Shown piece after piece: positions 10,460-46,317 of a stretch of DNA of 64,000 nucleotides (within the stretch, counting starts at the first letter, position 1; every line of letters begins with the position of its first letter). The notes beneath the pieces are model-generated. The model worked only from the letters and a program-made list of their open reading frames with translations. It was not told where the DNA came from and searched no databases. Origin of the DNA: a virus (taxonomy: Duplodnaviria; Caudoviricetes); the IMG/VR virus record IMGVR_UViG_3300025154_001556; one strand, 5' to 3'. The translations under genes and the position numbers were made by a program.

Positions 10460-10462
10460 AGC

Positions 10463-11098
10463 TTAATACCTCATCCACTGTTTTTTCTTTTTTGTACAAT
10501 CTTTCCAACAAGTAGAATGAAAGTCACTTCTATATGTATCATCCCACGAATTAGCTAAATTCATTAAATTCCTACAAGCACGTACATAGGGAGCATGTCC
10601 ACAACTTAAACGCCGTTCTTGTGTTGTTTTAGGGCGTCTATAATAGTGGCTAAAATGCCATTTTCTTTTGCCTGTATAAGGGACAGGCCCATTACGGAAA
10701 CCTAACCACTCATACTCTTTAAACCTGTTACGTTTAGTATACTTTTTAGGCACGTAGTTGTCAAGATCTTTTTCTATTTGTTCTGTATTTATTACTCTAA
10801 AATTAGCATCCAGAAGTAGGAAATCAACGGTGCTTCTTATATCTTTACCTATCCAACTTCCTGTCTTTATAGGCTCAAAATAAATATAAGTGTCATTCCA
10901 GTTGTTGCCAATATTTTGTGATAACTCCTTAGCAATACTTTTTGGGCGAAAATATTCACGTAATGTTTTTCTGTTAGGATCACGCCATTGGCGTTTGCGG
11001 TATCTAGCTAATAAAAAGTCTGTGTAAGATTTGAACTCCTCATAGTTGTTATCCCTATCAACCAAATAAACTCTTTCATCTTTATTAATTGTGTGCAT
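10463..11098 (-). CDS. hypothetical phage protein (RRPKTTQERR...NSWDD...CWKD)
   Basis: ORF track; its SD is sequestered in a hairpin. Confidence 0.7.
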   Translation of the reverse strand: MHTINKDERVYLVDRDNNYEEFKSYTDFLLARYRKRQWRDPNRKTLREYFRPKSIAKELSQNIGNNWNDTYIYFEPIKTGSWIGKDIRSTVDFLLLDANFRVINTEQIEKDLDNYVPKKYTKRNRFKEYEWLGFRNGPVPYTGKRKWHFSHYYRRPKTTQERRLSCGHAPYVRACRNLMNLANSWDDTYRSDFHSTCWKDCTKKKKQWMRY

Positions 11099-11106
11099 TT
11101 AGATTC

Positions 11107-11137
11107 TCCTTTAAGTTAAATTAATAAACTTAAAGGA
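11107..11137 (-). promoter_or_regulatory. 11-bp hairpin covering the SD of ORF 10463..11098
   Basis: TCCTTTAAGTT-N9-AACTTAAAGGA(G). Confidence 0.65.
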
Positions 11138-11208
11138 TATCTTGTACGTAATAATATAATATTTTATATTTCATAATGTTAATTTATTTCCAGTGTAAAA
11201 TATTAGAT

Positions 11209-11302
<94 letters not shown>

Positions 11303-11318
11303 ATAGTCAATAAAATTG

Positions 11319-11401
11319 CGGAAAAGGTAGGATTCGAACCTACGGAACTTTCGCTCAACGGTTTTCAAGACCGCCGCCTTCAGCCACTCGGCCACTTTTC
11401 C
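11319..11401 (-). tRNA. tRNA-Ser(UGA); no CCA
   Basis: GGAAAAG...GCGGT CTTGAAA ACCGT, long variable arm, G73. Confidence 0.92.
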
Positions 11402-11406
11402 TATTT

Positions 11407-11460
11407 AATAAATAATAAGATGACCACAGTCTAACCACCACGGTCATCTTATTATTTATT
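11407..11460 (-). terminator. 19-bp perfect inverted repeat; probable terminator or processing hairpin
   Basis: aataaataataagatgacc-N16-ggtcatcttattatttatt after the cytochrome gene. Confidence 0.65.
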
Positions 11461-11476
11461 TTAATCTATGCTAATA

Positions 11477-12331
11477 CTATTTTAATGTATGACACTTAGT
11501 ACAAGCAATATTACGTTTTGCATGGGTATCATGAAGCCCACTATTCCAAGTTTTCCTACTGTGACAGGTGCTACATAAGTTTTGCCACGGAGTCATAATA
11601 AAACCAGTAGGGTCAACGGTACCTGTACCAGGAGTAGGGGTAGGGGTAGGGGTAGGGGTGGTGCCTGTGTCCCCGTCAACCCCATCTTTTACCTCACCTG
11701 AGCCCACTGTAACATGGCAGTCCAAGCAGCCCTGATGTATAAGGTATGTTTCTTTCCTAAAACCAGGTGTGGCATGTGGATAGTGGCACATTTTACATGT
11801 TATAATATCCCCTTTTAGCAGTACAGCGATCCCGCCCCCAGATACAATTTCATCACCACTCATAGGGTCTTTAACAAAACCCCCATTTCCGTCGGCTACC
11901 TTTCTACCGTTAAATACGAAATCGTATTGAGCGCAGATAAACTTGTCGAATGCAACCACTGAGTCCTTCCCATTATGACAGTCTCTGCATACACCAACAC
12001 CTTCACGCTTTACTCTCTCGCCATGATTTACTCCATGTGCGTTGCCGGGTGACGGTAAAAACTTAGTAACAGTGTCCGGACATTCTGGACAAACCGGGTC
12101 TGGACATTCTGGACAAACTTGATCTTTACATTCCTCGCACGAAGGACACTCTCTATCTTTACATTCCTCGCACGAAGGACACTCTTTATCTTTAACTTTC
12201 TTTTCTTGTTTGTAAGACTCTCTATCGCGTTTATGCTCATCATCCTTAGCAATAGATGTACCCGCTACCATAAAACTAAAACAGAGTAAGATTGTTATAA
12301 TACTTAACAATTTATTCATACATTCCTCCAT
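11477..12331 (-). CDS. secreted multiheme cytochrome c (5 CXXCH motifs)
   Basis: N-terminal signal peptide; CRDCH, CKMCH, CLDCH, CSTCH, CTKCH; CPxC repeats; (TP)n linker. Confidence 0.85.
   Translation of the reverse strand: MEECMNKLLSIITILLCFSFMVAGTSIAKDDEHKRDRESYKQEKKVKDKECPSCEECKDRECPSCEECKDQVCPECPDPVCPECPDTVTKFLPSPGNAHGVNHGERVKREGVGVCRDCHNGKDSVVAFDKFICAQYDFVFNGRKVADGNGGFVKDPMSGDEIVSGGGIAVLLKGDIITCKMCHYPHATPGFRKETYLIHQGCLDCHVTVGSGEVKDGVDGDTGTTPTPTPTPTPGTGTVDPTGFIMTPWQNLCSTCHSRKTWNSGLHDTHAKRNIACTKCHTLK
12078..12193 (-). repeat. coding tandem repeats (33-nt x2 and 24-nt x2) encoding ECPSCEECKD and VCPECPD
   Basis: atctttacattcctcgcacgaaggacactc is duplicated; ggacattctggacaaac is duplicated. 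Confidence 0.85.
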
Positions 12332-12430
12332 CGTTTTGTAGTGATTTAATCACTGTTTGTGTTAGGCCTACACACAACAATGGTTAGCTTGCTATGCGTA
12401 GGTATAAAATACTTAACTGTAATTAAGTAA

Positions 12431-12459
12431 AGTATAAGACATTAAATAAAGATTGTCAA
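12431..12459 (-). promoter_or_regulatory. sigma70-type promoter for the cytochrome gene
   Basis: TTGACA-N17-TATACT overlapping the TGA of the upstream gene. Confidence 0.75.
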
Positions 12460-13421
12460 TTACTTTTAAACTTTTTAAGTAAAAATTGTCCGCATGCAGC
12501 CTTTACTTCCGATCCGGTGGATACTTGATATTTTAATTTACTGATATTATCTGAAAGTGTTTTTACTATTGTATTAAAATTTGTTGTTTCTTTAAAAGCA
12601 GATCCATCACAAGTATTAAAACGTAAGATGCGTAATTCTTTGTTGTAATTACTTGGACTATCCATAAAAGAAATAAGTTCCTTAATCTCTTCCAAGGAGT
12701 CATTGCATGACTGTAAAAAAACTTGATGGTATAATACATCAATGCCTTCTAACGCAGAAAGAATATTTAAAGCAGATACAGCTTCTATTATAGGTAGAGT
12801 ACCTGGAATTAAACCACTGCGTGTTTTTTGAAAAGCAGAATGTAATGAGTAAAATAGTCTAAAAGGACTTCTACCATCAATATGTTCTGGATTAATATCA
12901 TATAATTCTAAGGCTGTATTTAATTCTATAAATTTATTAAAATAAATATTTTTTACATTAGGGTATACAGTGGATAAATCCACCCCATCCAAGCCTTTTG
13001 CATAACCGTTAGCAAAAACCCAATTAAGTACATTTATAGAAACTTGATATACAATATCCCCGTATGGTAATGCATCACCCATACCCATCCATGAAAATTT
13101 TATGTATTTGTCTTTAAGCTCAGGTTTGTGTGCTACTTCTGCTGCTATTGCATCTTTAACATTCTGCTCTATTTGTTTAGCGGATAATTTTGTATAACCA
13201 CACTTTTTCACTGTCAGATAACAAAAAGCACAACGCATTGCACACCCTGCTGATACAGAAACAAACACGGAGTATTTATTTCTAGCTGTTGTAGTTACAC
13301 CTACTGTGTTATTACAAGAACTTACAGTTTTTATGGCAGTCTCTGAACCATCGTTGTGTATATATTTAGCCACCTGGTTATCTTTTGTTCTATAAACTTC
13401 CATAATTAACCCCGCTTTCAA
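12456..13421 (-). CDS. RlmN/Cfr-like radical SAM protein
   Basis: CAMRCAFC, MGMGD (cf. MGMGEP), SLHS and C-terminal AACGQ. Confidence 0.82.
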   Translation of the reverse strand: MKAGLIMEVYRTKDNQVAKYIHNDGSETAIKTVSSCNNTVGVTTTARNKYSVFVSVSAGCAMRCAFCYLTVKKCGYTKLSAKQIEQNVKDAIAAEVAHKPELKDKYIKFSWMGMGDALPYGDIVYQVSINVLNWVFANGYAKGLDGVDLSTVYPNVKNIYFNKFIELNTALELYDINPEHIDGRSPFRLFYSLHSAFQKTRSGLIPGTLPIIEAVSALNILSALEGIDVLYHQVFLQSCNDSLEEIKELISFMDSPSNYNKELRILRFNTCDGSAFKETTNFNTIVKTLSDNISKLKYQVSTGSEVKAACGQFLLKKFKSN

Positions 13422-13423
13422 AA

Positions 13424-14194
13424 TTATACTACTTCTAATGTAGCTGGTGCTGCCCCTTCAAAAATAACTTCTTCTTTATTAGAAAGTTTTGATAATGGGG
13501 GAATAAGATATTCAGCTACAATGTGGCGATTTACAAATATATCATTTAACCTTGTAGCCTTTTTAATCAGCTGTCTTTTAACATAAGTACCACGTTTAAA
13601 GTGTGTAGGGTAATCGTTCCAATTTACACCTTTTCTCATAAGCATGTCTAACATCTCTTCCCTATTTTTAGAGTGCAGTTCTTTGTGTGCATAATGGAAT
13701 CTTGCTGCCATAGAGACACTGTTTTTAATTGCATCTAATTCACGCCATACAAGTGTGTTGACTGCCTCCATTTTAGTAGGAACCACCCAAGCACGACAAT
13801 CAAATAGACCAGCATCTTCACCTTTTTCAGGAATAACTTCTTTAAGATAAGAAGAAAACATAACTGATGCCGCTGAAGCCAATACAGAAACAATCTTCTG
13901 TATTTTTCCATCAAAATAAACTTGTTTATTATAACTATCGCTATATAAAATAAGGCTTATTTCATCACTTTGGGTGTAACCTATTATTGCGTTTGACATT
14001 GAAACTAACGCCCCAGTGACATTTATCATTAAATGACTTAAACGTTCATCATAAGGCCTTTTAAGGCCTTTTGTAAGTGTACTAAAACATTTACCATCCA
14101 ATCTTACACATATAGGTAGTAAAGGAGTAAATTGTCTGCCTGACTCATAACGCTCTAACAATTTCATCCTGTCACCCAGCGCATCTTTATTCAT
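13424..14194 (-). CDS. tRNA(His) guanylyltransferase Thg1-like protein
   Basis: RLDGKCFS, GYTQSDEISL, FDCR and FKRGT motifs. Confidence 0.9.
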   Translation of the reverse strand: MNKDALGDRMKLLERYESGRQFTPLLPICVRLDGKCFSTLTKGLKRPYDERLSHLMINVTGALVSMSNAIIGYTQSDEISLILYSDSYNKQVYFDGKIQKIVSVLASAASVMFSSYLKEVIPEKGEDAGLFDCRAWVVPTKMEAVNTLVWRELDAIKNSVSMAARFHYAHKELHSKNREEMLDMLMRKGVNWNDYPTHFKRGTYVKRQLIKKATRLNDIFVNRHIVAEYLIPPLSKLSNKEEVIFEGAAPATLEVV

Positions 14195-14228
14195 AGTTTC
14201 CTCCTAACAAATGCTTAATAAAAAAAAA

Positions 14229-14308
14229 CGGCAGAGAAAAGTGATTAAACTGTTTTTGAGTTCTGATTAATGGTCAGAATGAAGTAAGTGTAATCTGCAC
14301 TACTACCG
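14229..14308 (-). ncRNA. structured RNA or terminator-like element downstream of tRNA-Glu
   Basis: CGGTAG...CTGCCG closing stem, internal TTCTGA-CCATTAA-TCAGAA hairpin, followed by a T-run. Confidence 0.35.
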
Positions 14309-14312
14309 TTTG

Positions 14313-14386
14313 CGCTGTGTACAGGAGTCGAACCTGCGAATGCCGACTAGAAAGGTCGGTGTCTTAAACCACTTGACTAACACAGC
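14313..14386 (-). tRNA. tRNA-Glu(UUC); no CCA
   Basis: GCTGTGT/ACACAGC; CCGAC CTTTCTA GTCGG; GCAGG TTCGACT CCTGT. Confidence 0.9.
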
Positions 14387-33446: not shown

Positions 33447-34106
33447 TTAATTATAAGAAAACTTTAATTTAATCATTGTATCTTCTGCGCGGCCCCAGAA
33501 ATACTCTAAGTCTTTTTGACCAAAAACTAAACGCCACACACCCACATCTTTAAACAATGGTTTATACAAAGTTAGATCTTCCAAAGGCTCTATGAGTTTA
33601 TTTCTTGGTTCTAATTTAAAGTAATCTCCAATGTGCATTAACATAGCAGCGCCATCAATAAGCATCATATCGTAGTTAACAAAGTACATCTTTTCTAAGT
33701 TACTATTAATAAACCCTTGCACATGATCTACCCAGTACTGTACTGGGTCCGAAAACATTCTTGGATCTAGGGGATTTTTAGTTTCAGCAGTTTTTTCAAA
33801 TAAATCCTTATCACTATAAGCCTCTATATATCCCATAATGTACTGTCTAAAAGTTTTACCTTCGAAATGTTTTTTTGTGCCAGGTTGTTGCTTCCAATAT
33901 TCATAGCAATCATATAACACGTCTCTGCCATCCCTTACAACATATAGAGCTATGTCACTATCCGCAATAGCTTTCACCATACTATCTGAAAAATGCCAGT
34001 GATTTTTGTCGAAATCATTACAATAGTAATTAGCCATTATACTTCTAACAACATAAGAGGCGCCTGATTTTCTATGACAAAAAACTCTATTTATGTTCTT
34101 ACTCAT
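33447..34106 (-). CDS. sulfotransferase-domain protein
   Basis: PAPS-binding-like HRKSGASY and YVVRDGRDV. Confidence 0.72.
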   Translation of the reverse strand: MSKNINRVFCHRKSGASYVVRSIMANYYCNDFDKNHWHFSDSMVKAIADSDIALYVVRDGRDVLYDCYEYWKQQPGTKKHFEGKTFRQYIMGYIEAYSDKDLFEKTAETKNPLDPRMFSDPVQYWVDHVQGFINSNLEKMYFVNYDMMLIDGAAMLMHIGDYFKLEPRNKLIEPLEDLTLYKPLFKDVGVWRLVFGQKDLEYFWGRAEDTMIKLKFSYN

Positions 34107-35272
34107 TTTTTATGCTCCCATAATATCTTTGGCATAACAACTGATTTCAACTCTTTTGGTACTATGTCTTTAATAGTGACCATTGTATATTCTATCTCTT
34201 GTTTTATACTTCTTGTAGGAGTATAACCTAAACTAGGTAAAATGTCAACAACATAGTTGTAGTAATGTTCTCCTGTATACTCATTTCTTGGAGAAGGGAT
34301 ATGCTGTGTAGAGCTGGGTATCCCTAATTTAGTAGCTACTTCTTCTACAAATTTAGTTATATCAATTATTGAATGCCACTCAGATAACTGATTCCATACC
34401 TGTACTTTGCCCGCCGCTGGTGGATTGTTTACAGCTATCTCTAATGCCTGCACACTATCATTTAATGATATAAACCCTCTTTGGTGTAGCCCCTCTCCAT
34501 AAACAGTCATTGGGATACCTAACAGTGTTTGTACAATAAAGCGATTAATGACAGTGCCTCCTGCTTCGTCGCTATCAAGTCTACTATATACCTTAGTTTT
34601 ATCTATTTCATCCGTATACGATCCGAAAACAACAGACTGTTGTACGTCGGTGCATCTCAACCCCCAAGTGCGCGTTAAAAAATCTATTATATAAGTAGAA
34701 GCGGTTTTTGAACAATGATATAATGATCCCGGCCTTCTAGGGTAAATCATTTCATTGGACATCCTGCCCTTATGATTAATCTTAATGTAACCCTCTTCGA
34801 TATCTATATTACTATAATGATCATATTCACCTGTTGTTCCTATGGTAATATAATGCGCATCTGGTGTATGTGCCTTCATATACCACAACAAATTATTTGT
34901 AGGTATTATATTATTCCTCAAAGTAAATTCAGCCTTCTCTTGTGAGATCTGACTGAATGGGGCAGAGGGTATGTGTGCCAAATTAATGATAGTGTCTGGT
35001 TTATACGTAACAAACAGTTCCTCTACTTTGTTACTATCTTGTAATAAGTCAATAGCATAAAATATAAAATCTCCCAAAACACTAAATTTACTAATCTTTT
35101 CTACCATGGGTAAAACAGGTGTAGCAGACTTAGAGGTCATTAGATCTTGTATCCAATATCTTCGTAAAAAGTTATCTACACCAATTACTTTAAATCCCTT
35201 ATTTAACAAACGTTGTGTTAAAGCATTGCCAATGTAACCATCGCACCCTAAAAGTAAAACTGTGTTATTCAT
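34103..35272 (-). CDS. sqdB: UDP-sulfoquinovose synthase (SqdB/SQD1/Agl3-like SDR)
   Basis: GCDGYIG, VDNFLRR, PSAPFS, GTTGEY, YHCSK, WGLRCTD, GTVINRF and GLHQRGF. Confidence 0.88.
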   Translation of the reverse strand: MNNTVLLLGCDGYIGNALTQRLLNKGFKVIGVDNFLRRYWIQDLMTSKSATPVLPMVEKISKFSVLGDFIFYAIDLLQDSNKVEELFVTYKPDTIINLAHIPSAPFSQISQEKAEFTLRNNIIPTNNLLWYMKAHTPDAHYITIGTTGEYDHYSNIDIEEGYIKINHKGRMSNEMIYPRRPGSLYHCSKTASTYIIDFLTRTWGLRCTDVQQSVVFGSYTDEIDKTKVYSRLDSDEAGGTVINRFIVQTLLGIPMTVYGEGLHQRGFISLNDSVQALEIAVNNPPAAGKVQVWNQLSEWHSIIDITKFVEEVATKLGIPSSTQHIPSPRNEYTGEHYYNYVVDILPSLGYTPTRSIKQEIEYTMVTIKDIVPKELKSVVMPKILWEHKK

Positions 35273-35273
35273 A

Positions 35274-36011
35274 TTAAACCCCCAAAGAAATCCTAAAAAG
35301 CTGCGATATCACCGTGGTATCTTTTAAAATAATTTCCTTATTTTGCTGTTTAAACCATTCTGGAAATACTTTATTATACAGCTGGTAACACCAAACCGTT
35401 TTATCGTGCTCATACAGAACATTAGTAAAGTATTGTTGCCAATGTGAAAAAGGTATAGAACCAACTAATCCAAGTGATTGGGTTATGGCAGAATGTTTAC
35501 GCACCAATGGTGTGAGTATACGTGAGCCATTTTCCCCCCAACTTAATGTTTTTTTAGTATCGATAAGTGTATCTTGTTGTTCTATATACTCATTGATTAA
35601 TACACCGTTAGGTATGCTTGCCATTACACCTACTGATGCAAGGCCTTCATGCTGGGTTCTATATAAAAAATCTTTTCTATTTAATAAAGGTACAAGTTCA
35701 TCGGGAGAACGCATAACAATTGTATCAGCATCGAGCCATATACCGCCATACTTTTGTAAAAGTTTAGCTCTAATATAATCCGCTTTAATACTAATGTTCT
35801 CTCTGGGATTATTGGACACTTTTAATTTATTTAAATCTGTTCTTAATTCAGGTATTAAGTCGTGTATATTTAAGTTATCTACAAGTTTAAATACAAAGTT
35901 ATCTGTATTACAATATTTATCCATAGAATCAAAACATAATTCTAAGTATGATGGTGTTTTTAAGCCGGCGGGGTTTTCCCAATAAGTCCAAACAGTAATA
36001 GGAATTTGCAT
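35274..36011 (-). CDS. capsular polysaccharide synthesis-type glycosyltransferase (DxD)
   Basis: WTYW, ADYIRAKLLQKYGGIWLDAD. Confidence 0.85.
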   Translation of the reverse strand: MQIPITVWTYWENPAGLKTPSYLELCFDSMDKYCNTDNFVFKLVDNLNIHDLIPELRTDLNKLKVSNNPRENISIKADYIRAKLLQKYGGIWLDADTIVMRSPDELVPLLNRKDFLYRTQHEGLASVGVMASIPNGVLINEYIEQQDTLIDTKKTLSWGENGSRILTPLVRKHSAITQSLGLVGSIPFSHWQQYFTNVLYEHDKTVWCYQLYNKVFPEWFKQQNKEIILKDTTVISQLFRISLGV

Positions 36012-36623
36012 TTAAAGCCTCCATAAACCAAAAATCCGTTTAAACCCGGACTCTTCAATAAAAGTTAGTGGAGCTGATAAATTAAATGGATCTTTTTCTA
36101 AATTAATTTCTCTAAACCCATATTCAGATGTGTATAGTGATCGCTTGCTCGTAAATTTTTCAGAGGATGTCGGTGTATTGCTGATCACATTTCTATATGA
36201 GGTGGTCATTAAATAAGGTGAACCACTGGCTTTAAATAATTTTAAAGCTTTAATTACAGAAGCATCAGGTAAATGAAATAAACAATCTCTACAAATAATT
36301 AAATCAGTCCTAGGTAATGGCTGATTAACTAAATCAAATTCAATAAAAGAAACCTTAGGATATTTTGTTTTATTGACATCTAACATTTCTTTGTTTATAT
36401 CGTAACCTACATATGTAGCAGTACCTAAATCTACTAAGTTCATCCAAGCAAAATCCCCACAACCGGCGTCACTAATGCTTCTAATATTATAATTTTTTAG
36501 TTGGTCTCCGATAAATTCCCTAATTTTAGTAGTAACACTAACTGCAGATCCAATACCGCAAGGTAAATTAATCTTGCAATTATCTTTCCACAATGCCGTA
36601 GCTATTTTTTTATTTGCGTTCAT
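36012..36623 (-). CDS. class I SAM-dependent methyltransferase
   Basis: CGIGS, DAGCGDFAW and DLIICRDCLFHL. Confidence 0.85.
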   Translation of the reverse strand: MNANKKIATALWKDNCKINLPCGIGSAVSVTTKIREFIGDQLKNYNIRSISDAGCGDFAWMNLVDLGTATYVGYDINKEMLDVNKTKYPKVSFIEFDLVNQPLPRTDLIICRDCLFHLPDASVIKALKLFKASGSPYLMTTSYRNVISNTPTSSEKFTSKRSLYTSEYGFREINLEKDPFNLSAPLTFIEESGFKRIFGLWRL

Positions 36624-37171
36624 TTTACAATCTCCAATAGATTAACAAAATTATTAAATGTGGTTACTTTACCCCAAGCCTTCAAATCTTCTGTACTCCA
36701 ACCATAAACATGTTGTTCATAAGGGTTACCCGCAACACCACCACGTTTTTGAAATCTATTTAAAGTAGGGGTAGTTATAAAGGCATTCTTACATTTATCC
36801 CGGACCAGATTCATCATTTTAATGCCATCTTCTTTTTCAAAATGCTCTACAACATCGCAAAAAGTAATTAAATCATAGTTACCTAATGTAGGTAATATAT
36901 CAAGTGCATTGCCAATAAAAATTTTATTGTATATTTGTCTATGTATTTCAGTGATGTACTCTTCATATACTTCTATGCCATGTATAACAGTCTCAGGTTT
37001 TCTAAAACGATTGTTCCAAATATCTGTGTATTCTCTGGCTAAGAAACCATATTTTCCAAACCCAATCCCTATGTCTAATACGGTTTTTGGTTGTAAGTCG
37101 ATGATTCTGGAAGCTATGTGTGCTATGGGGTAGGGTCTCGATGTTGGCATGTTATGCTCCTTTATTTTCAT
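36620..37171 (-). CDS. class I SAM-dependent methyltransferase
   Basis: VLDIGIGFGKYG and YDLITFCDVVEH. Confidence 0.85.
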   Translation of the reverse strand: MKIKEHNMPTSRPYPIAHIASRIIDLQPKTVLDIGIGFGKYGFLAREYTDIWNNRFRKPETVIHGIEVYEEYITEIHRQIYNKIFIGNALDILPTLGNYDLITFCDVVEHFEKEDGIKMMNLVRDKCKNAFITTPTLNRFQKRGGVAGNPYEQHVYGWSTEDLKAWGKVTTFNNFVNLLEIVK

Positions 37172-37796
37172 TTATTTGGGTATTAATAACTCTATTGGAC
37201 AAAGGTATATTTAAAAAAGTTAATAACTTAGATTGTGTGGTTTCATCATTCAATACTTCTTCCGTATTAAATAACATAAAATTGTCTTTAAACGCTGCAG
37301 CATATTCTGCTGCTAAATTATAATAGTCGTCCCAATATTGTTCTATTGCATCTATTTTTGGTAGATTATATTTTGGATAACAATTATCATAAATTGGATC
37401 AAGGCGCCACAAGTTACTGTCCCAATAAATACTATCCCTAGCTGTCCAATGGTTTCGTTCTTTTAGCCCTGTTTTAGTGTTAGCAGCGGTCTTTTTAATA
37501 TAGCTAGCAACAGTGTCTTTTTTAGTTCGTTTAAGACAAATAAATTTTGAGTTTGGGAATTTATCCAATATGTATATAACATAAGGTAAATGCCAAAAAG
37601 ATACATCACATGACGAAAAGCCCCAGGGCCTATTTTGCATATACGCAATGGTTTTATCTATGTGTCCTTTGCTAAACTGCCATGGAGTTATTACTAACTC
37701 ATGAGTTGAAGTAAAGTCGTTCTGCAGACCTAACAATTCTTTAAGAGATACAGTACCGCATCTACCTGTACCAAGACCAAAAATAAGTTGTTTCAT
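37152..37796 (-). CDS. sulfotransferase-family protein
   Basis: GLGTGRCGTVSL and KFICLKR..KDTVAS. Confidence 0.72.
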   Translation of the reverse strand: MKQLIFGLGTGRCGTVSLKELLGLQNDFTSTHELVITPWQFSKGHIDKTIAYMQNRPWGFSSCDVSFWHLPYVIYILDKFPNSKFICLKRTKKDTVASYIKKTAANTKTGLKERNHWTARDSIYWDSNLWRLDPIYDNCYPKYNLPKIDAIEQYWDDYYNLAAEYAAAFKDNFMLFNTEEVLNDETTQSKLLTFLNIPLSNRVINTQINENKGA

Positions 37797-38569
37797 TAAA
37801 GCACCTCATAGTATTTTTTGTATTTTTCTATGACCCCTTCATTTATTACACGTTGGGTCCAACCTCTATGTGGGGCCTCAGCCAAAGCGTCCATAGTAAC
37901 ACCTATATCAATTAAACTTTTGTTTCTTATATTATGATCTTTCCATAAGCGTTTGGCTAATACACGTGTAGCCATACCTATTACAGGAAGAATTATATCA
38001 CAAGTTTGTAGTTTGTCAAGTATTTCTTCCATTTTACGATCTAAGGCATAATAAGCATTGTCCACCCCTGTAAAAGATACTGTGTGTTTAATATTAAACA
38101 TCTTTTCTATAAGGTTACTATTACACAAAGGTTCGCCGGCTACCAATAATACTTTTTTATCATAGAACATAGTATCAATAAATTTTACAAACCACTCTAA
38201 TTTATGTTCAAAAGCATATTGAAATATTAACGCATGATAACCTTCGTCTGGGTTACCTCGTAGTAACTTCCAAATATGTCTAAGCTGCCCATCCAGAATT
38301 TGCTGCTGTACTCTATTTTTTATCCAAAAATAACTACCGCTCCCATCTTCAAAGGAACCGGCAGTACTAGCTACTACATAATTTAGATCGAATATTTGTA
38401 AAGCTTCCCTTAATTCCTGTCGTAGTTTAACACTATTTCTATGCCTTTGTTCATTAGGTGCTCCTTGTATAAGAGTTAAATCTCCATCACCAAACCTTAC
38501 AAAGTAAAATGGGGAACCCCCATTTATCAATGTGTCTAAATGATTACTTGTTTGTTCTATTGTTTTCAA
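37796..38569 (-). CDS. GT-D fold (DUF1792-like) glycosyltransferase
   Basis: YFVRFGDGD, GMATRVLA and IDIG..MD. Confidence 0.72.
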   Translation of the reverse strand: MKTIEQTSNHLDTLINGGSPFYFVRFGDGDLTLIQGAPNEQRHRNSVKLRQELREALQIFDLNYVVASTAGSFEDGSGSYFWIKNRVQQQILDGQLRHIWKLLRGNPDEGYHALIFQYAFEHKLEWFVKFIDTMFYDKKVLLVAGEPLCNSNLIEKMFNIKHTVSFTGVDNAYYALDRKMEEILDKLQTCDIILPVIGMATRVLAKRLWKDHNIRNKSLIDIGVTMDALAEAPHRGWTQRVINEGVIEKYKKYYEVL

Positions 38570-38581
38570 TTAAATTACTCC

Positions 38582-39472
38582 TTATATTAAGGTAAGTTCC
38601 CCAGACCAAGCGTCTAATTGCGATGCAAAATCTACATAATCTTTATAGTTAGGATCTAATTGCATCATTTTGGCTGCGTTTAATGCAGTATCTCTCAAAG
38701 CCTCGACACGATCTGCGAACTCCGGGTGCTTAAAAGGTAGTTTACCAATCCTGTTTTGACCATAAAATCCTATGTGTATTTGTCTGTCGCACATAGGAGA
38801 ATAAGATCTTAAACCTTCTTCAATAAAAGCAGTATCTATTAGTCTATTAACAAGACCGTCCCAACCAATATGCTGAAATAAATTTTTACGCTCCGCCCTG
38901 TATTTAGATCTTTTGTCATCCCCATTGCGTTTATTAACCAAATGGATGATGGTCTCTCTATTAGTATAATAATCATATGTGGCATAAGGCCTTACATACT
39001 TATTAAAAAAATATCCGTTCATTAAACAGGCCGGCGCTTCAAATAGGTTTGTAGCTTGCACACCAGTTATACTTGTATTAGGCACTAATCTACGACTAGC
39101 ATTAATAACAGAAAATTTATTACCCTTTAATAAGTTTAATGCTGTATTCATATATGTAAAGTAAGTTTCATGCAGCAAACAATCATCTTCTATGTTTAAT
39201 ACATAATCTGCGCCTTCAAAAAAAGCCTGCTTAAACCCTTCTAAAATATTACCCCAACCAAAATGCCTAAATGATCTTGTAACAACTGTTTTTTCAAAAG
39301 GATAATAATCTTGAATTAGCTCAACACATTTAGGATCAGCGTTGTGTTCTAATGCAAATAAAGTACTATAATTGTCTGTACTTAGTTGCTTACGTGCTTT
39401 TATTTCATACTCCATAGACAGATAAAGCATCTCTGGTCTATTATATACAGCCCTTAATATACACCCATTCAT
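38582..39472 (-). CDS. GT-A fold glycosyltransferase
   Basis: RAVYNRPEML and IEDD. Confidence 0.65.
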   Translation of the reverse strand: MNGCILRAVYNRPEMLYLSMEYEIKARKQLSTDNYSTLFALEHNADPKCVELIQDYYPFEKTVVTRSFRHFGWGNILEGFKQAFFEGADYVLNIEDDCLLHETYFTYMNTALNLLKGNKFSVINASRRLVPNTSITGVQATNLFEAPACLMNGYFFNKYVRPYATYDYYTNRETIIHLVNKRNGDDKRSKYRAERKNLFQHIGWDGLVNRLIDTAFIEEGLRSYSPMCDRQIHIGFYGQNRIGKLPFKHPEFADRVEALRDTALNAAKMMQLDPNYKDYVDFASQLDAWSGELTLI

Positions 39473-39481
39473 CTACTTACC

Positions 39482-39964
39482 TCATTTTTTATATACTTCC
39501 AATATAAAATTAGATCCTTCAAAGCTATGATTTGAAGGTATTAAATTAGCAGCTATACATAAATTAGATAGCCATTTGACATCAAACATAACAAAGTGAA
39601 AGTTACCTGGGTAATCTTGTCCACCAAACATATGGTAAGAAACAAACTTAGCATCACCTGTTTGTCTATAATATTCCACAGCCCATTGCATATTTGGTGT
39701 ACGAATTTCCATTACACCGCCATGCTTTAATAATCTGGCCCATTCTTTAAGTAGACCAATAGTTTTGCTTATTGGGAAATGTTCTATTATATCGCTCGCA
39801 AGTATATAATCAAACTGCTCATTGGGCAGGTCTACTGCCTCAACATTACCTACTATATCAACACCTTCTAAGGGGCGTATATCTAAGTTTACACACGTAT
39901 ACCCTTTGGGATATTCTTTATATATGCGGTTGCCACAACCAATGTTTAAAGTTTTTTTAGTCAT
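39482..39964 (-). CDS. SAM-dependent methyltransferase (type 11)
   Basis: LNIGCG and DIIEHF. Confidence 0.85.
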   Translation of the reverse strand: MTKKTLNIGCGNRIYKEYPKGYTCVNLDIRPLEGVDIVGNVEAVDLPNEQFDYILASDIIEHFPISKTIGLLKEWARLLKHGGVMEIRTPNMQWAVEYYRQTGDAKFVSYHMFGGQDYPGNFHFVMFDVKWLSNLCIAANLIPSNHSFEGSNFILEVYKK

Positions 39965-39970
39965 AATATA

Positions 39971-41089
39971 TTATTTTAATTCAAGTTCTTTAAGTAATTT
40001 TGTACCAATGGTGGTTAAAGAAAAATTAGTATTTATATACTGCTTTAATCTTTGCCCTGTTGTTTTGGCGGCCTCTTTATTGTCATAAACAAACTTCATT
40101 AAGTCAGCGCCATTTTTCACATCAGGCTCTGCCCAAAGTTGATCACCTCTATACCATGGACTCCATGGCATACCATAAACGGGTGTTAGTGTGTAATTTA
40201 CTAAATAGCTATTATCTTGTTTGGCATATTCTGTCACGCCGCCAAACCCTGTAACTACTATGGGATTACCAAAAGCTCCGGCCATAAAAGGCCCAATACC
40301 AAAACCCTCACCGCGGTCTAATGAGGCGTAACAATCACCTCTTTTATGTAATCCATTAACTTCATCTTCTGTTAGCATGTCTGGTAATAAATAAATGGGT
40401 GGATATTTGTCCATAGGAGTAATAGCTTTTAGTTTTCTTATGGTAATTCTTATGGCATCTTTTTCTTCCTCGCTGTAATCACTACGATAAGTTTTTAATA
40501 CAAGAGCCACATCTTCATTATTCTGAAACGCATGCCAGTATGCCTTTATTAATGCTGTCGGATGTTTTCTTTCAGTCCATTGAAATATAGCATAAAACAT
40601 ATAGGTATCTTTGGATACTCCTTTTACATCAAAAGGAGTAGATGTGGCTACATGACTTAAATCCATACAATGAGGCACTACACCAATAGGGATTGTAACA
40701 CCACTGTGTTTAAACACCTCTTTGTTCCATTCACAACCAACTAAAACTTTATCAACAGTACTATTAATGTAGCTCTTCCAGTCTGGATGCAATAGATCTG
40801 TTTCCCATATAGTGTAACCAACATTTTTCTTGTCTTTTTCTCTGTATCTAGACCAGAATTCAGGTGTCGTGTGTATAATTACTGTATCGTAGTCCACCTT
40901 AGCATCCATTAACTTTGTTAAAAGAACCCCATCAGCACCTAAGTCTGGTTTTGACTTTTCAAAAGAAATTGGATCTAACGTTATAGGTACACCAAGTGAA
41001 TGGAGTGCCAGAATATTACCACGACAGGCTTTTGCATAACCTGAATTGTCTAGAATTGGCCCTATATATTTTATACCTTTAATTGTCAT
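39971..41089 (-). CDS. GT-B (GT4-like) glycosyltransferase
   Basis: SGY, WET, RKHP and RGEGFGIGPFMA. Confidence 0.88.
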   Translation of the reverse strand: MTIKGIKYIGPILDNSGYAKACRGNILALHSLGVPITLDPISFEKSKPDLGADGVLLTKLMDAKVDYDTVIIHTTPEFWSRYREKDKKNVGYTIWETDLLHPDWKSYINSTVDKVLVGCEWNKEVFKHSGVTIPIGVVPHCMDLSHVATSTPFDVKGVSKDTYMFYAIFQWTERKHPTALIKAYWHAFQNNEDVALVLKTYRSDYSEEEKDAIRITIRKLKAITPMDKYPPIYLLPDMLTEDEVNGLHKRGDCYASLDRGEGFGIGPFMAGAFGNPIVVTGFGGVTEYAKQDNSYLVNYTLTPVYGMPWSPWYRGDQLWAEPDVKNGADLMKFVYDNKEAAKTTGQRLKQYINTNFSLTTIGTKLLKELELK

Positions 41090-42062: not shown

Positions 42063-42239
42063 TTAATACATACAGTAACAGCTCATATAAGAGTAGTTGT
42101 GCCTTTTAACAACAGATTTAGGTTTAGGACGATCGTAGATGCGTTCTTTCCAATGATCTTCATCACCACAAACAGGACAAACTGCATGATGAAATAGATA
42201 CCAATAAAGTCTATTTTGCTTTTTTTTACTATTCTTCAT
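42063..42239 (-). CDS. small Zn-ribbon protein (CPVC)
   Basis: Likely start is MKNSKK, overlapping the thyX end. Confidence 0.5.
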   Translation of the reverse strand: MKNSKKKQNRLYWYLFHHAVCPVCGDEDHWKERIYDRPKPKSVVKRHNYSYMSCYCMY

Positions 42240-43023
42240 CTTGTTTCTCCAAAGAAGTTTTCCACATAGTGTAACCAGCGAGGACCTCCTCTTTGGTGGG
42301 GTATTTACCACAACTACGTGCTTTATTTTCTGAACAGTAGCCGGCTTGTTGACATTTAGGACCAACATTTTTAAAAACTACTGGTAGTGCTTCCTTACAT
42401 AAAGCCAGCATCTCATTGGCTACATTACGAATTTCCCATTGCGCTAATGTACAGCAGCGTAAACCGAAAAAATGTATTAAGCTCACACAATTTTTAGTTG
42501 TCACTAATCTTGTGATAGCAGCATTAGGCATAAGGTAACGCGCATCCTCACTCTTGATGCTCAATTCTTTGAGTTCATTATATGCTTGCTGTATATACTC
42601 CAAGGCATCGATATAAATTTGCTTAGCAACAGCATGCTTATTTATAGAGGGTGGAATGACAAAATTATTGATATCAAACTCTCCACCATTAGCCACATAC
42701 CGTTGGGACTGCTGGGAATAGCTAGCCATGCGGTGACGTACATGTTGATGGCTATCCGCGCGGGATATACCGTCAATAGCAAATGTAAATTTTACATGTT
42801 CGAGAACACTTGTGTGACCTGATTTAAATAAGTGGTTTATCAACCCCTCTATTTCTTTGTCCGTACACAAATGACCATCTTTGTTATCTGTAATAGACAC
42901 AAAGCCGTCCTCGTCTTCTTGCCAGGAGTCTCCTACCCATCCTTCGGAGTAACACTGTCTACCGGCAGCAAATAGTAATTTCTCAGCATTAGCTGAAACA
43001 TCTAGTAGTTTAACTCTTAACAT
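42229..43023 (-). CDS. thyX: flavin-dependent thymidylate synthase
   Basis: GHTSVLEH and RHRMASYSQQSQRY. Confidence 0.93.
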   Translation of the reverse strand: MLRVKLLDVSANAEKLLFAAGRQCYSEGWVGDSWQEDEDGFVSITDNKDGHLCTDKEIEGLINHLFKSGHTSVLEHVKFTFAIDGISRADSHQHVRHRMASYSQQSQRYVANGGEFDINNFVIPPSINKHAVAKQIYIDALEYIQQAYNELKELSIKSEDARYLMPNAAITRLVTTKNCVSLIHFFGLRCCTLAQWEIRNVANEMLALCKEALPVVFKNVGPKCQQAGYCSENKARSCGKYPTKEEVLAGYTMWKTSLEKQDEE

Positions 43024-43033
43024 AGTGTCACCT

Positions 43034-43195
43034 CTATCCACCAAAACCACAGAATGGGCAAAATTTTAAACTTTTAGAATATAGTCTTTTACAAAGATCA
43101 CACGCGTACTCTACGGTTGTGTTGCTATATGCTTCTTCTATTTCTTTTTCATCAATTTGTACTTGCTCCGGTTTAAGTATAAGCATTTCTTCCAT
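43034..43195 (-). CDS. small Zn-ribbon protein (CDLC...CPFC)
   Basis: ORF track; start is probably MEEM. Confidence 0.55.
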   Translation of the reverse strand: MEEMLILKPEQVQIDEKEIEEAYSNTTVEYACDLCKRLYSKSLKFCPFCGFGG

Positions 43196-43220: not shown

Positions 43221-43244
43221 AAAAAGGGGACTAAGCCCCTCTTT
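43221..43244 (-). terminator. rho-independent terminator
   Basis: AGAGGGG-CTTAGT-CCCCT followed by TTTT. Confidence 0.65.
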
Positions 43245-43248: not shown

Positions 43249-44799
43249 TTAAAAAGTTTCTGAGTTTATGACGTTGGTGGTCTGTGTTGCTAACATTTCT
43301 GCCACTTTACTTTTTTGTTCAAGCATTGATTTAGATACAGCGTCAAAAGTTTTAACCCAAGTATTACCAACTGCTGTTTGCCAATCTAGGGTACCTGTAA
43401 CAAATTTATACGCCTGCTCGGCCTTAGTCATGGCCTCTTCATAATTATTATACACATGTAGCATCTTGTCGATTAGATCTTCTACATCAACTAATGGGCG
43501 TCTTACTTCGTTGTCATAAGGAAGTACTGTCCATAGACTGGGGTTAGTACCGCTTTTTACAAGGTAGCCCACATCCTCAGTAATATTTTCTATCATTGCT
43601 GTGTTTCTGGGCATAATAACGGGTGTTTTAGCGGCCATTGCTTCTATCCATGAAAGCCCCCACCCTTCACCAAGACTTGCGCTAACAACGCAATCAACAC
43701 AGTTATACAGCATATTAACTATTTCTCTCGGATAGCCTTGATTAGGCCCAAAATTTTGAGGAAATATGACGTCATCGGTTAAACTAAAATCATACGCTCT
43801 ACATACTTCTGGCAGATTCCATCCCTGATCTTGTTTAGCCATATGCAGATATAATAAAGTATTTGGTTCTTTTTTACGTAACTCATGGAATGCTTGGATA
43901 GTCCTAGGAATATCCTTACGTTGCTGATTTCTATTTAGGTTCATGTAAATAAATTTATCAGCATGACGACCAAAGTAACGTTTTCTAAAATCAGCTACTT
44001 CATCCTTAGGTAATGGTTTGTATTCATTGATATTAACCCCATGAGGAATTACAGACATATCACCCACAATTGGGTATGTTTCCTGACATAGCTTTCTACC
44101 AAAGTTAGCGAAAGTAATTACTTCATCACAGAAACTAACATTTTTTATCCACTCTGGCTTAGGTGTACCATCAATGGGAAAATACACCACGGATTTAAAC
44201 GGCGTCTCCCTATTCTTTTTAAGATGTGGAATCAACTCAGGTAAAAAATCCAAAATAAAACTGTCCTGCATAAAAAATAGAATATCAAAATCCATTTTAG
44301 GAATCATATTAACTATCTTTTTACGACCGTAGGGATCTCTTTCCGCATTATTACCTACCGGCCAAATCTTATATGGAAAATCATGTGGATCTCCCCAGTA
44401 ATTTATACCCAACACTTCGATGTCATATCTACCCGTTTTATACAACGCTTCTAAAACATTACGGCTGACTGTTGCAAAACCTGTTGCCAAATATCTTCAT
44501 ATAAGAACGCTACTTCTTATACCGCTTCTTGGGCTGCTGCATGTTTCCATGCAAGTTGAGACTATATCATCATCCACTTGGGATGCTACGTGCTTCCACC
44601 CGCTTGGGTGTACTTCCTTATATGGAATAGTCGTTGCACCTTCCTCTATAAAGAGGCTTGGCTCAGGATTGTCCTCGACTTGACGTTAGGAGTTCCCCTG
44701 AATTCTCGTAGTTATTCGGTACATATTGCTATGTAAAGCTGCACATTATTTACAGGAGGGGGTGTCCATATAACATAAAATTTTAATCTTTTTTCCCAT
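43249..44799 (-). CDS. intron-split GT4-like glycosyltransferase, 428 aa, join(44752..44799,43249..44487)
   Basis: Spliced N-terminus MGKKIKILCYMDTPSC/ATGFATVSRNV; RNQQRK and GEGWGL motifs; SD AAGGAG before the exon 1 ATG. Confidence 0.88.
44488..44751 (-). mobile_element. group I intron (264 nt) without an ORF
   Basis: P1 CTGT|A with TGCAG (U-G at the splice site); P3 CTACG/CGTAG; core GAATTCAGGGGAA, AATCCTGAGCC, GGTGCAACGACTA, GATATAGTC; P9 TGCATG-GAAA-CATGCA; terminal G. Confidence 0.9.
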
Positions 44800-44808
44800 A
44801 GAAACTCC

Positions 44809-45160
44809 TTAATTGTTTAGTAATCTTCCACGATTACGCATTAAAATTGAATACCAGTTCTCGTGCCAAATTCTATCAGTATTAGCACGAGAATTACAAC
44901 TTCTACATAGAGTTATTAAATTAATAGGTCTGCAATCCTCCTTGTCATAATTTATATGATGGATAGTTAACTCCTTAGTTATACCAAAACAGTAAGGATT
45001 TCTACAAACGTTATTATCTCTATATTTTATCGATTCTTTATAAATCTTATCTTTCCAGGCACCACAATTTAGTGCTTGCGTTTATATAAATGTCATCAAT
45101 AAGTGTGTAACCATACTTTTCAAACTGTGCTTTTATAAAGTCAATTGTATGTCTTTTCAT
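44809..45160 (-). pseudogene. HNH homing endonuclease remnant (internal deletion or frameshift)
   Basis: The frame from ATG 45160 (MKRHTIDFIKAQFEKYGYTLIDDIYINASTKLWCLER) stops early. Another frame with no start encodes CGAWKDKIYKESIKYRDNNVCRNPYC...TIHHINYDK...NLITLCRSCNS. Confidence 0.8.
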
Positions 45161-46317
45161 TTATTTTTTATTTTACGTACATCTAAAAAAGGTGTTGTAA
45201 AATTCACAGTCATGCTATCTACTATTTTAGCCTTGGCTGCGGGGTTCTTATCCATATATTTTTCAATATCTGATTTATTTAAAGATACCATATTCAATAG
45301 ATACTCTTGTGGTACTATTTGTTTAACCGCGCTAATATCGTAAGTTGCTCTACTATTTTGTCTAACATAAACTTCTTTGTCGTCTACTTGTACATTTATA
45401 CCAGTAGTTTTTATACGATCCATAAGAAGTAAAGATAGTTCTTTCTCGCGCATTTCATATATTTTTTTCATCTTTTTAACTTGTTGCCACTCATCGACCA
45501 AAGCACTGTTATCTAAACGATACGCTTCTTGAAATTTGCCGTTCGAATTTGTATATGCCTCTTTATACGCATTACAATATTCTCTAAAATCACACCAAGG
45601 ACAAAATGTGTTTATTGTGGCTTTTACATCCTGCTCTTTCAAGGAAAGCATGGAATCGTACACTAATCTAAGATATTCAGAAAAAGCAGCCCGTTCTTCT
45701 GGTGTACGATAAGAATATAACATCTCATGTTTTAACAAGTCAAGGCTAACTATAATACGCTTTCCAGGCCACAATATACTGGCTACCAAATCATACATAG
45801 ACAACTGTTTGTCTGTTTTTAGTTGATCCGGTGTAGGTGCAGTTTTAGATGTTTTATAGTCCACAATTAGAATGGTGTCTTCATCTACCTGTAATACTTT
45901 ATCAATAGCGCCCAACAACGGCACACCTTCTTTGGTGATTACATCTACACCACCTTTATAACCAAAGGGAGTTTCTAAGCTTATTATTTTGTGCCCTTCA
46001 TGTATAAAATCATTTATTCTATTAGTTACTAATTCTATACCTGTTTGGTGTACGGAAAAATCATCAATTCCTTCTTTTACAGAGACTTCTTTAAACTTAT
46101 TAATAATAGTTTCTTTATCTTTTTTAGTGAACTTCTCTTTTTCCCGCCAGATATTTCCAGCCAACTCCAAGGCAATGTGAACAGCTGTACCTAATTTAAA
46201 TACCGGATTATCTATTTTAGGTAATTTATCATAATAGTTAAACCAGTATTTCTGCTTACATTGCAAAAAAGTACTTATGCGTGTAGCACTTATTTTAATG
46301 CCCTCATTATTTACCAT
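45157..46317 (-). CDS. PD-(D/E)XK nuclease (RecB/Cas4-like exonuclease)
   Basis: SATRISTFLQC, GAID, VDYKT, Q..Y and C..C. Confidence 0.85.
   Translation of the reverse strand: MVNNEGIKISATRISTFLQCKQKYWFNYYDKLPKIDNPVFKLGTAVHIALELAGNIWREKEKFTKKDKETIINKFKEVSVKEGIDDFSVHQTGIELVTNRINDFIHEGHKIISLETPFGYKGGVDVITKEGVPLLGAIDKVLQVDEDTILIVDYKTSKTAPTPDQLKTDKQLSMYDLVASILWPGKRIIVSLDLLKHEMLYSYRTPEERAAFSEYLRLVYDSMLSLKEQDVKATINTFCPWCDFREYCNAYKEAYTNSNGKFQEAYRLDNSALVDEWQQVKKMKKIYEMREKELSLLLMDRIKTTGINVQVDDKEVYVRQNSRATYDISAVKQIVPQEYLLNMVSLNKSDIEKYMDKNPAAKAKIVDSMTVNFTTPFLDVRKIKNK

What the first reader, a model, noticed from the sequence alone, without database searches (positions are those of the whole stretch)
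43249..44799. ORF-less group I intron in a glycosyltransferase gene
Seen: a 264-nt intron after codon 16 with P1, P3, P7, P9 and a terminal G. Splicing restores the N-terminal strand and loop (ILCYMDTPSC/ATGF) that the track ORF lacks. A glycosyltransferase is an unusual intron host. Its invasion suggests the gene is conserved and important, and makes glycan synthesis depend on splicing.
Basis: partly seen in the sequence, partly recalled or inferred. Interest (0 to 1): 0.7.

Follow-up and report, generated by a model that had tools for sequence, protein, structure and literature searches.

The report
Self-splicing intron in phage glycosyltransferase gene
A 264-base self-splicing (group I) intron really does split a highly conserved sugar-transferase gene of an uncultured groundwater jumbo phage, next to the wreck of a selfish nuclease gene; it is a well-supported new example of a known kind of element, not a new mechanism.

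Summary
Rfam's group I model matches window 44537-44761 (-) at 83 bits (E 1e-19). The intron is 264 nt (44751-44488). It follows codon 16 (TGT), starts after a U.G pair in P1 and ends in G.

Splicing joins MGKKIKILCYMDTPSC to ATGFATVSRN. 116 of the 120 best homologues read this motif without a break. Two diverged orthologues (L001, L006) have the same intron at the same site. All 66 hand-drawn pairs (P1-P9.1, including the P7 pseudoknot) hold in all three copies, and 11 are kept through changes on both sides. Exon 1 has its own Shine-Dalgarno site and encodes strand beta1 of the GT-B fold, so the TTG-start ORF is a gene-calling artefact.

It is a decayed free-standing HNH homing-endonuclease gene, intact in L001 and L006. 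Relatives show four states: empty site, HNH only, HNH plus intron, and dead HNH plus intron. The layout resembles collaborative or trans homing (S-PM2 psbA/F-CphI; T4 mobE/nrdB). However, the 40 closest HNH loci scanned (out of the 80 fetched) have no intron nearby, so the partnership is not shown.

No RNA data exist. This scan had already reported the same intron on other DNA records. Verdict: new member of a known kind.

The parts
44805..44810 (-). Shine-Dalgarno AAGGAG, 5 nt upstream of the exon 1 ATG
   Evidence: Read from the sequence. Equivalent AGGAG sites precede exon 1 in L001 and L006. Nothing comparable precedes the TTG at 44490.
44752..44799 (-). Exon 1 of the glycosyltransferase gene, 16 codons (MGKKIKILCYMDTPSC). 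The last four bases, CUGU, form the exon strand of P1.
   Evidence: The peptide is conserved in L001 and L006 despite synonymous changes. It matches the N-termini of intron-less homologues. It forms beta1 plus loop in the AlphaFold model of orthologue P0003.
44488..44751 (-). ORF-less group I intron, 264 nt, subgroup-IA-like (P7.1 and P7.2 present). The internal guide GCAG lies at 44742..44739, the terminal G at 44488, and an in-frame TAA two codons into the intron.
   Evidence: Rfam 83 bits, E 1e-19. 66 pairs are 100 % paired in three copies, with 11 compensatory pairs and at most 1 in slid controls. The same intron sits at the same site in L001 (106 bits) and L006 (83.5 bits).
43249..44487 (-). 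Exon 2 of the glycosyltransferase gene (412 codons plus stop). The spliced product is 428 aa, a GT-B fold enzyme of the GT4 type.
   Evidence: Pfam Glycos_transf_1 1.2e-12. phrog_2170 glycosyltransferase 4e-48. Foldseek best match is chlorovirus NY-2A B736L, 3oy2, TM 0.72. 771 homologues.
44809..45160 (-). Decayed free-standing HNH homing-endonuclease gene. It consists of a 38-codon N-terminal fragment (45160..45044, its ATG overlapping the upstream gene's TGA) and an out-of-frame C-terminal HNH domain (about 45075..44809) with no start codon.
   Evidence: Three-frame translation. tblastn with L001's intact 298-aa HNH gives 59 % identity, E 1e-28. DNA alignment to L006's intact 229-aa gene shows the last ~270 nt about 88 % identical and the DNA-binding repeats deleted.
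43227..43239 (-). Terminator-like hairpin followed by a T-run, just after the GT stop codon
   Evidence: Consensus scan only.

Best explanation
The gene at 43249-44799 (-) encodes a 428-aa GT4-type glycosyltransferase. It is interrupted after codon 16 by a 264-nt ORF-less group I intron of the phage subgroup-IA type.

**How it works.** The pre-mRNA folds into the ribozyme. Exon 1's CUGU pairs with the guide GCAG (P1, U.G at the cleavage site). Guanosine attack releases exon 1, and the exon 1 3'-OH then attacks after the terminal G (44488). The first exon 2 bases, GCA, can pair with UGU of the guide (P10). This joins TGT to GCA. Only spliced mRNA gives a full enzyme. Unspliced RNA gives a 17-residue peptide, because a TAA stop lies two codons into the intron.

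**What is shown.** Shown: the ribozyme signature, structure conservation with covariation, the exact junction, and the need for exon 1. Inferred: splicing itself.

**Origin (about 45 % likely).** The intron entered and spread with the help of the free-standing HNH endonuclease gene directly upstream. That enzyme would cut intron-less alleles, so the intron is copied in by repair and may protect its own genome from cutting. In this phage the HNH gene has since decayed, leaving a fixed intron kept only by selection for splicing.
For: **Ribozyme and structure**
- Rfam 83 bits, E 1e-19, full model length.
- Orthologous introns at the same codon in L001 (GT 70 % identical) and L006 (90 %).
- 66 pairs in 13 helices, 198 of 198 cells paired, 11 pairs changed on both sides; 0 of 500 shuffles reach this and slid registers give at most 1.

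**Junction and exon 1**
- 116 of 120 homologues read the motif uninterrupted, and the spliced product matches them across the junction.
- All 3 intron-bearing alleles have C at the wobble base of codon 15, which extends P1. None of 10 intron-less alleles does.
- Exon 1 has an AAGGAG site and the TTG has none.
- Exon 1 forms beta1 and its loop in a pLDDT-86 model.

**HNH gene**
- Intact in L001 (298 aa) and L006 (229 aa), decayed in the window.
- The intron is found only in genomes that have or had this HNH gene (3 of 3). Alleles lacking both exist: L003 and L005.
- An intron-less relative is present in the same sample.

**Precedents**
- Collaborative or trans homing is established for S-PM2 psbA/F-CphI and T4 mobE/nrdB (PMC6083498, PMC2790892, PMC3984707).
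Against: - No RNA evidence: no RNA run holds the locus, and no joined form was seen (reported only as tried).
- Only three intron copies exist and they form one clade, so the intron-HNH co-occurrence may reflect a single ancestry.
- The HNH gene also sits upstream of GT genes that are uninterrupted at codon 16/17 in L009, L061 and L065.
- None of the 40 closest loci of this abundant HNH family (at least 502 loci) has a group I intron within 2.5 kb. The family is mostly intron-independent.
- Exon flanks at the junction are as diverged at synonymous sites as the rest of the gene, so there is no visible co-conversion tract.
- The HNH cleavage site is unknown.
Confidence: 0.85

Rival explanations
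1. The intron is real and splices, but its neighbour is a coincidence. The HNH gene is an ordinary free-standing homing endonuclease that spreads on its own (intronless homing) into the PD-(D/E)XK/GT intergenic slot. The intron was acquired once and inherited vertically in one small clade.
For: - HNH occurs without the intron at the same slot in L009, L061 and L065.
- 40 of 40 closest HNH loci lack introns.
- A different nuclease with the same repeats occupies the slot in L007.
- There is no co-conversion tract.
- The three intron-bearing alleles are each other's closest relatives.
Against: - The intron is never seen without the HNH gene or its remnant (3 of 3).
- The intron is 85 % identical between the window and L001, while four-fold sites of the flanking genes are saturated at 33-49 %. 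This fits later lateral spread, though ribozyme constraint could also explain it.
- Any double-strand break made near the GT 5' end would co-convert an element only 57 nt away.
Confidence: 0.4
2. The intron is a dead relic that no longer splices. The 413-aa TTG-start protein is the functional product, or the gene is a pseudogene.
For: Gene callers predict the TTG or ATG-start truncated ORF in all three intron-bearing records. No RNA data exist.
Against: - 11 compensatory pairs and 100 % pairing across copies whose neutral sites are saturated.
- The exon 1 peptide, its Shine-Dalgarno site and P1 complementarity are all maintained.
- The truncated form would lack beta1 and the invariant Y-D-P-C residues.
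- There is no ribosome-binding site before the TTG.
Confidence: 0.04
3. The intron has been co-opted as a regulator. Splicing efficiency, responding for example to GTP level, temperature or translation, would time expression of the glycan-synthesis gene cluster that this GT heads.
For: The GT lies at the 5' end of a run of sugar-modifying genes: a second GT, GT-D, a DXD GT, a sulfotransferase, methyltransferases and an epimerase/dehydratase. It is the only group I intron in the related 234-kb genome.
Against: - No extra sensor domain: the intron is a minimal core.
- Most relatives manage without it (116 of 120).
- The distribution is that of a selfish element sitting beside a homing endonuclease gene.
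Confidence: 0.05

Closest known systems
Cyanophage S-PM2 psbA group I intron with the adjacent free-standing endonuclease F-CphI ('collaborative homing'; Zeng, Bonocora and Shub 2009, as described in PMC6083498 and PMC3984707)
   Same: [quoted passage not shown] Intron-less alleles exist in related phages.
   Different: - The nuclease here is an HNH enzyme with repeated CapR-like zinc modules, not an Endo VII-type enzyme.
- Its cleavage site is unknown.
- It is decayed in this window.
- Its family occurs mostly without introns.
- The host gene is a glycosyltransferase.
Phage T4 nrdB intron with defunct I-TevIII, mobilised in trans by the neighbouring free-standing HNH endonuclease MobE (PMC2790892)
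   Same: An HNH-family free-standing endonuclease lies beside a gene whose intron cannot move by itself, so the intron could spread by co-conversion after a nearby break.
   Different: - In T4 the intron still holds a broken endonuclease ORF and MobE is intact.
- Here the intron has no ORF at all, and it is the free-standing gene that is broken in this phage.
Subgroup IA2 phage introns such as those of Staphylococcus phage Twort and its relatives (classification from my own knowledge; sequence similarity)
   Same: Core sequence is 70-78 % identical. The best blastn hits are in Twort-like Staphylococcus phages. The introns share a compact size, P7.1 and P7.2 between P7 and P3', and a short P2.
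   Different: The host gene, insertion site and phage lineage all differ. Formal subgroup assignment was not run.
Short ORF-less group I introns plus many stand-alone HNH genes in gut 'Jug' jumbo phages (PMC12880540)
   Same: Both are jumbo phages with small ORF-less introns in conserved genes, alongside stand-alone HNH genes and inteins.
   Different: - Jug phages carry about 18 introns per genome, in terL, nrdD and DNA polymerase genes.
- This lineage has a single intron in 234 kb, and it sits in a glycosyltransferase.

Membership tests
Group I intron (Rfam RF00028) | Covariance-model match above the curated threshold over the whole core | tested here: met
   83 bits against a gathering score of 50, E 1.3e-19, model positions 1-253.
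Group I intron (Rfam RF00028) | P1 helix between the 5' exon end and the internal guide, with a U.G wobble at the 5' splice site | tested here: met
   CUGU pairs with GCAG. The U.G pair is present in all three copies (columns 10 and 20). The codon-15 wobble C that extends P1 is found only in intron-bearing alleles.
Group I intron (Rfam RF00028) | Conserved P3-P9 core including the P3/P7 pseudoknot, supported by covariation | tested here: met
   13 helices with 100 % of cells paired. 11 pairs changed on both sides in P2, P6, P6a, P7.2, P8, P9 and P9.1. P3, P4, P5, P7 and P7.1 have no compensatory change: P3 varies on one side only and the other four never vary.
Group I intron (Rfam RF00028) | Terminal G at the 3' splice site and restoration of the reading frame | tested here: met
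   G at 44488. It is the only in-frame junction after the TGA at 44499. The spliced protein matches intron-less homologues residue for residue.
Group I intron (Rfam RF00028) | Self-splicing with a guanosine cofactor | not testable with these tools
   No RNA run holds the locus. An in vitro transcription and splicing assay is needed.
Subgroup IA (IA2-like) phage introns | Extra helices P7.1 and P7.2 between P7 and the 3' strand of P3 | tested here: met
   UUCC/GGAA and CACCC/GGGUG hairpins sit at that position. P7.2 has one compensatory pair. The class features are named in PMC3984707.
Subgroup IA (IA2-like) phage introns | Formal assignment with subgroup-specific models | not tested
   Subgroup covariance models are not available here. 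The only support is blastn similarity to introns of Twort-like phages.
Collaborative / trans homing pair | ORF-less intron with a free-standing homing-endonuclease gene adjacent | tested here: met
   The HNH gene is intact in L001 and L006 and decayed in the window. Its stop codon overlaps the Shine-Dalgarno site of exon 1.
Collaborative / trans homing pair | [quoted passage not shown] | not testable with these tools
   This needs an enzyme assay on L003 or L005-type and window-type DNA.
Collaborative / trans homing pair | Intron and endonuclease gene are distributed together among relatives | tested here: inconclusive
   The intron always comes with the HNH gene (3 of 3). The HNH gene is also found without the intron in L009, L061 and L065. 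40 of 40 paralogous HNH loci lack introns.
GT4 / GT-B glycosyltransferase (host gene) | Glycos_transf_1 domain and a two-Rossmann GT-B fold | tested here: met
   Pfam PF00534 1.2e-12. The AlphaFold model has pLDDT 86, and Foldseek TM scores are 0.65-0.72 to 3oy2, BshA, MshA and PimB'.

The most novel reading that the evidence does not exclude
The GT locus of this jumbo-phage lineage preserves, in living genomes, every stage of the proposed route to mobile introns: empty site (L003, L005), free-standing HNH alone (L009, L061, L065), HNH plus ORF-less intron (L001, L006), and dead HNH plus fixed intron (this window). In this reading the HNH enzyme cuts the conserved C-ATGF motif DNA, and the intron serves as the genome's immunity to its own nuclease. 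That would make it a third natural collaborative-homing system and the first built on an HNH enzyme in a glycan-synthesis gene.
Probability: 0.3. Interest if true: 0.5.

Novelty: new member of a known kind. Interest (0 to 1): 0.35.

Why it matters
**Annotation.** The deposited 413-aa ORF is a truncated artefact. The real product is 428 aa and needs splicing. The same correction applies to two related metagenomic phages.

**Biology.**
- A glycosyltransferase is added to the short list of phage genes known to host group I introns.
- An intron in some phages and an intein in another mark this enzyme as a conserved, probably indispensable part of the lineage's glycan-synthesis cluster.
- The locus offers a natural series of alleles on which the collaborative-homing model could be tested with a simple cleavage assay.
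- The mechanism itself is not new.

Tried and rejected
- **Whole-genome search:** no genome is held for this window.
- **Metagenome scan with the intron's invariant 20-mer:** it returned 17 loci, 15 from one assembly.
- **RNA evidence:** no RNA holder is listed for the locus. The one possible RNA run only holds cores of other, related introns, and no joints were seen.
- **General intron-HNH link:** 40 loci of the closest HNH relatives were scanned with Rfam, with no intron found. blastn of the intron against all 80 HNH loci also found nothing.
- **Co-conversion tract:** exon flanks next to the junction differ at synonymous sites as much as distal parts do, so recent homing cannot be shown this way.
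- **RNAalifold on its own:** it pairs the exon 1 end with exon 2 instead of the guide and cannot draw P7. It was replaced by a hand-drawn canonical structure.
- **Deposited phages:** none shares the GT exons at DNA level, and the DNA polymerase is at most 34 % identical. The host and taxon remain unknown.

Full report
**1. Observation**

Rfam's Intron_gpI model matches window 44537..44761 on the minus strand at 83 bits (gathering score 50), E 1.3e-19, over the whole model. It is the only group I match in the 64-kb window.

The minus strand reads AAGGAG-tttct-ATG GGA ... TCC TGT | AAA TAA TGT GCA GC ... ATA TTT G | GCA ACA GGT TTT. The coordinates follow from that:
- Exon 1 is 44799..44752 (16 codons).
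- The intron is 44751..44488 (264 nt, last base G).
- Exon 2 starts at 44487.

After the in-frame TGA at 44499, position 44488 is the only G that is followed by an in-frame exon start. The junction is therefore unambiguous. Two DNA runs from different studies hold the stretch, intron included, with no differences.

**2. Is the junction right?**

The TTG-start ORF (413 aa) has 771 homologues.
- Of the best 120, 116 carry an uninterrupted ...(K)IKVLAYCDSPTC-ATGFGTVSRN... near the N-terminus.
- Only the window's own protein and P0004 are cut exactly at ATGF.
- The spliced product, MGKKIKILCYMDTPSC|ATGFATVSRN, matches the homologues across the junction.
- In 35 aligned homologues Y10, D12, P14, C16, A17, T18, G19 and F20 are invariant. 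The intron thus sits in the most conserved N-terminal motif.

An AlphaFold model of the intron-less orthologue P0003 (74 % identical, same numbering, pLDDT 86) places strand beta1 at residues 5-12 and helix alpha1 from residue 19. Exon 1 therefore supplies the first core strand and most of the beta1-alpha1 loop of the N-terminal Rossmann-like domain.

The fold is GT-B of the GT4 type. The best structural match is chlorovirus NY-2A B736L (3oy2, TM 0.72), followed by BshA, MshA and PimB'. Exon 1 has a Shine-Dalgarno site and the TTG has none.

**3. Is the RNA under selection?**

The contig of P0004 (L001; GT 70 % identical) and an IMG/VR 234-kb contig (L006; 90 %) carry the same intron at the same codon (Rfam 106 and 83.5 bits). 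L003 and L005 (76 and 74 %) lack it.

I drew the canonical structure by hand: P1, P2, P3, P4, P5, P6, P6a, P7 as a pseudoknot, P7.1, P7.2, P8, P9 and P9.1.
- All 198 cells of its 66 pairs are standard pairs.
- 11 pairs are kept through changes on both sides.
- None of 500 shuffles reaches this, and slid registers give at most 1 such pair.

Four-fold synonymous sites of the flanking genes are saturated between the window and L001 (33-49 % identical), whereas the intron is 85 % identical.

All three intron-bearing alleles end exon 1 in CCTGT. The C at the wobble position of codon 15 extends P1 and is absent from all 10 intron-less alleles. The first exon 2 bases, GCA, can pair with UGU just 5' of the guide (P10; read from the sequence).

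P7.1 and P7.2 mark the intron as subgroup-IA-like. The best blastn hits are introns of Twort-like Staphylococcus phages at 70-78 % over the core.

**4.

The 357 nt between the upstream PD-(D/E)XK nuclease gene (45157-46317) and exon 1 are not empty. They hold two pieces:
- a 38-codon fragment (45160..45044) resembling the first DNA-binding repeat of an endonuclease;
- in another frame and without a start codon, a C-terminal HNH domain (...HHINYDKEDC...NLITLCRSCNSRAN...) ending in a TAA that overlaps exon 1's Shine-Dalgarno site.

L001 has an intact 298-aa gene at this place, with three CapR-like zinc modules plus HNH (phrog_559/681). L006 has an intact 229-aa one. Against L006, the window keeps the last ~270 nt at about 88 % identity and has lost the repeats. 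This is a dead free-standing homing-endonuclease gene.

**5. Distribution among relatives**

| State | Loci |
|---|---|
| Neither element | L003, L005 (slot checked directly); L008 and L010-L014 have an uninterrupted GT and no HNH match in the upstream flank |
| HNH upstream of a GT uninterrupted at codon 16/17 | L009 (=L078), L061, L065 |
| Different nuclease (same repeats, MTES_1575-like domain) in the slot | L007 |
| HNH plus intron | L001, L006 |
| Dead HNH plus intron | window |

- The intron is therefore nested within the HNH-bearing genomes.
- The layout matches collaborative homing (S-PM2 psbA/F-CphI) and trans homing (T4 MobE/nrdB) as described in PMC6083498, PMC2790892 and PMC3984707.

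**6. Limits on the mobility reading**

- The three intron copies form one clade.
- The HNH family is very abundant (at least 502 loci in IMG/VR, several per contig). None of its 40 closest loci has a group I intron within 2.5 kb.
- No co-conversion tract is visible.
- The cleavage site is unknown.

I put the partnership at about 45 % and mere neighbourhood at about 40 %.

**7. Context**

- The phage is an uncultured groundwater jumbo phage. Earlier notes give about 237 kb. Holders are groundwater and soil metagenomes. No cultured relative exists.
- The related 234-kb genome has this one group I intron only.
- Downstream on the same strand, after ThyX, lie a second GT, GT-D, a DXD GT, a sulfotransferase, methyltransferases and an epimerase/dehydratase. 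The split gene thus heads a glycan-modifying cluster. Its acceptor is unknown.
- In L065 the same GT carries a LAGLIDADG intein, and in L001 ThyX does. This fits a conserved, probably essential target.
- The nearest intron relatives interrupt head protein, DNA polymerase, exonuclease and RNA polymerase genes. A GT is therefore an uncommon host, and no paper reporting one in a phage was found.
- Short ORF-less introns with stand-alone HNH genes are already documented by the thousand in Jug jumbo phages (PMC12880540).

**8. Verdict**

- The mechanism is ordinary group I self-splicing, which restores an essential N-terminal strand.
- The element is a new member of a known kind, with a decayed neighbouring HNH gene as the likely relic of its mobility.
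- Splicing itself and the nuclease's target remain untested.
- This scan had already reported the same intron on another record of this sequence and on the 234-kb relative. I reached the same reading independently before seeing those notes.

Noticed in passing
L065:3351-5852 (+): The orthologous glycosyltransferase of another phage is one 834-aa frame containing a LAGLIDADG intein (Hint, LAGLIDADG_3 and Intein_splicing domains, residues about 247-658). The same gene has therefore been invaded by a protein-level selfish element at a second site.
   Followed up: partly
L001:4282-6156 (+): ThyX next to the intron-bearing GT is 624 aa and holds a LAGLIDADG domain between two Thy1 halves, probably an intein. 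The window's ThyX (42229-43050) is uninterrupted.
   Followed up: partly
L007:1338-2405 (+): The same intergenic slot holds a 355-aa protein with the same CapR-like DNA-binding repeats but a different C-terminal nuclease-like domain (MTES_1575 / Vsr-like). The catalytic domain seems to have been swapped on a shared binding scaffold.
   Followed up: no
window 44371-44406 and 44782-44800 (run X13, record 5): A 10.6-kb contig in one soil metagenome that also holds the window matches both exon flanks, with a spacing exactly 264 nt shorter. An intron-less relative therefore co-occurs with the intron-bearing phage.
   Followed up: no
window 33447-41089 (-): There is a run of sugar-modifying genes downstream of the split GT and ThyX: epimerase/dehydratase, a DXD glycosyltransferase, three methyltransferase-like genes, a sulfotransferase, GT-D and a second GT-B-like gene.
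   Followed up: partly
window 44756-44752 with 44483-44479 (-): The exon 1 end, CCUGU, is complementary to ACAGG at bases 5-9 of exon 2 in all three intron-bearing alleles (one U-A becomes U-G). RNAalifold prefers this pairing to P1. It may be chance, or it may help bring the exons together.
   Followed up: no
L017:9887-10759 (-): An endonuclease of the same PHROG families (681/559) lies directly upstream of a related group I intron core in an exonuclease gene of another viral contig. This is another possible intron-nuclease neighbour pair.
   Followed up: no
L039-L053, L055 (assembly JAESGT01): The 20-mer AAATAATGTGCAGCTTTACA occurs on 14 different contigs of one assembly without any group I intron, so it belongs to an unrelated dispersed repeat there.
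   Followed up: no
window 1236-14386 (-): Seven tRNA genes pass the Rfam threshold in the first 15 kb of the window.
   Followed up: no
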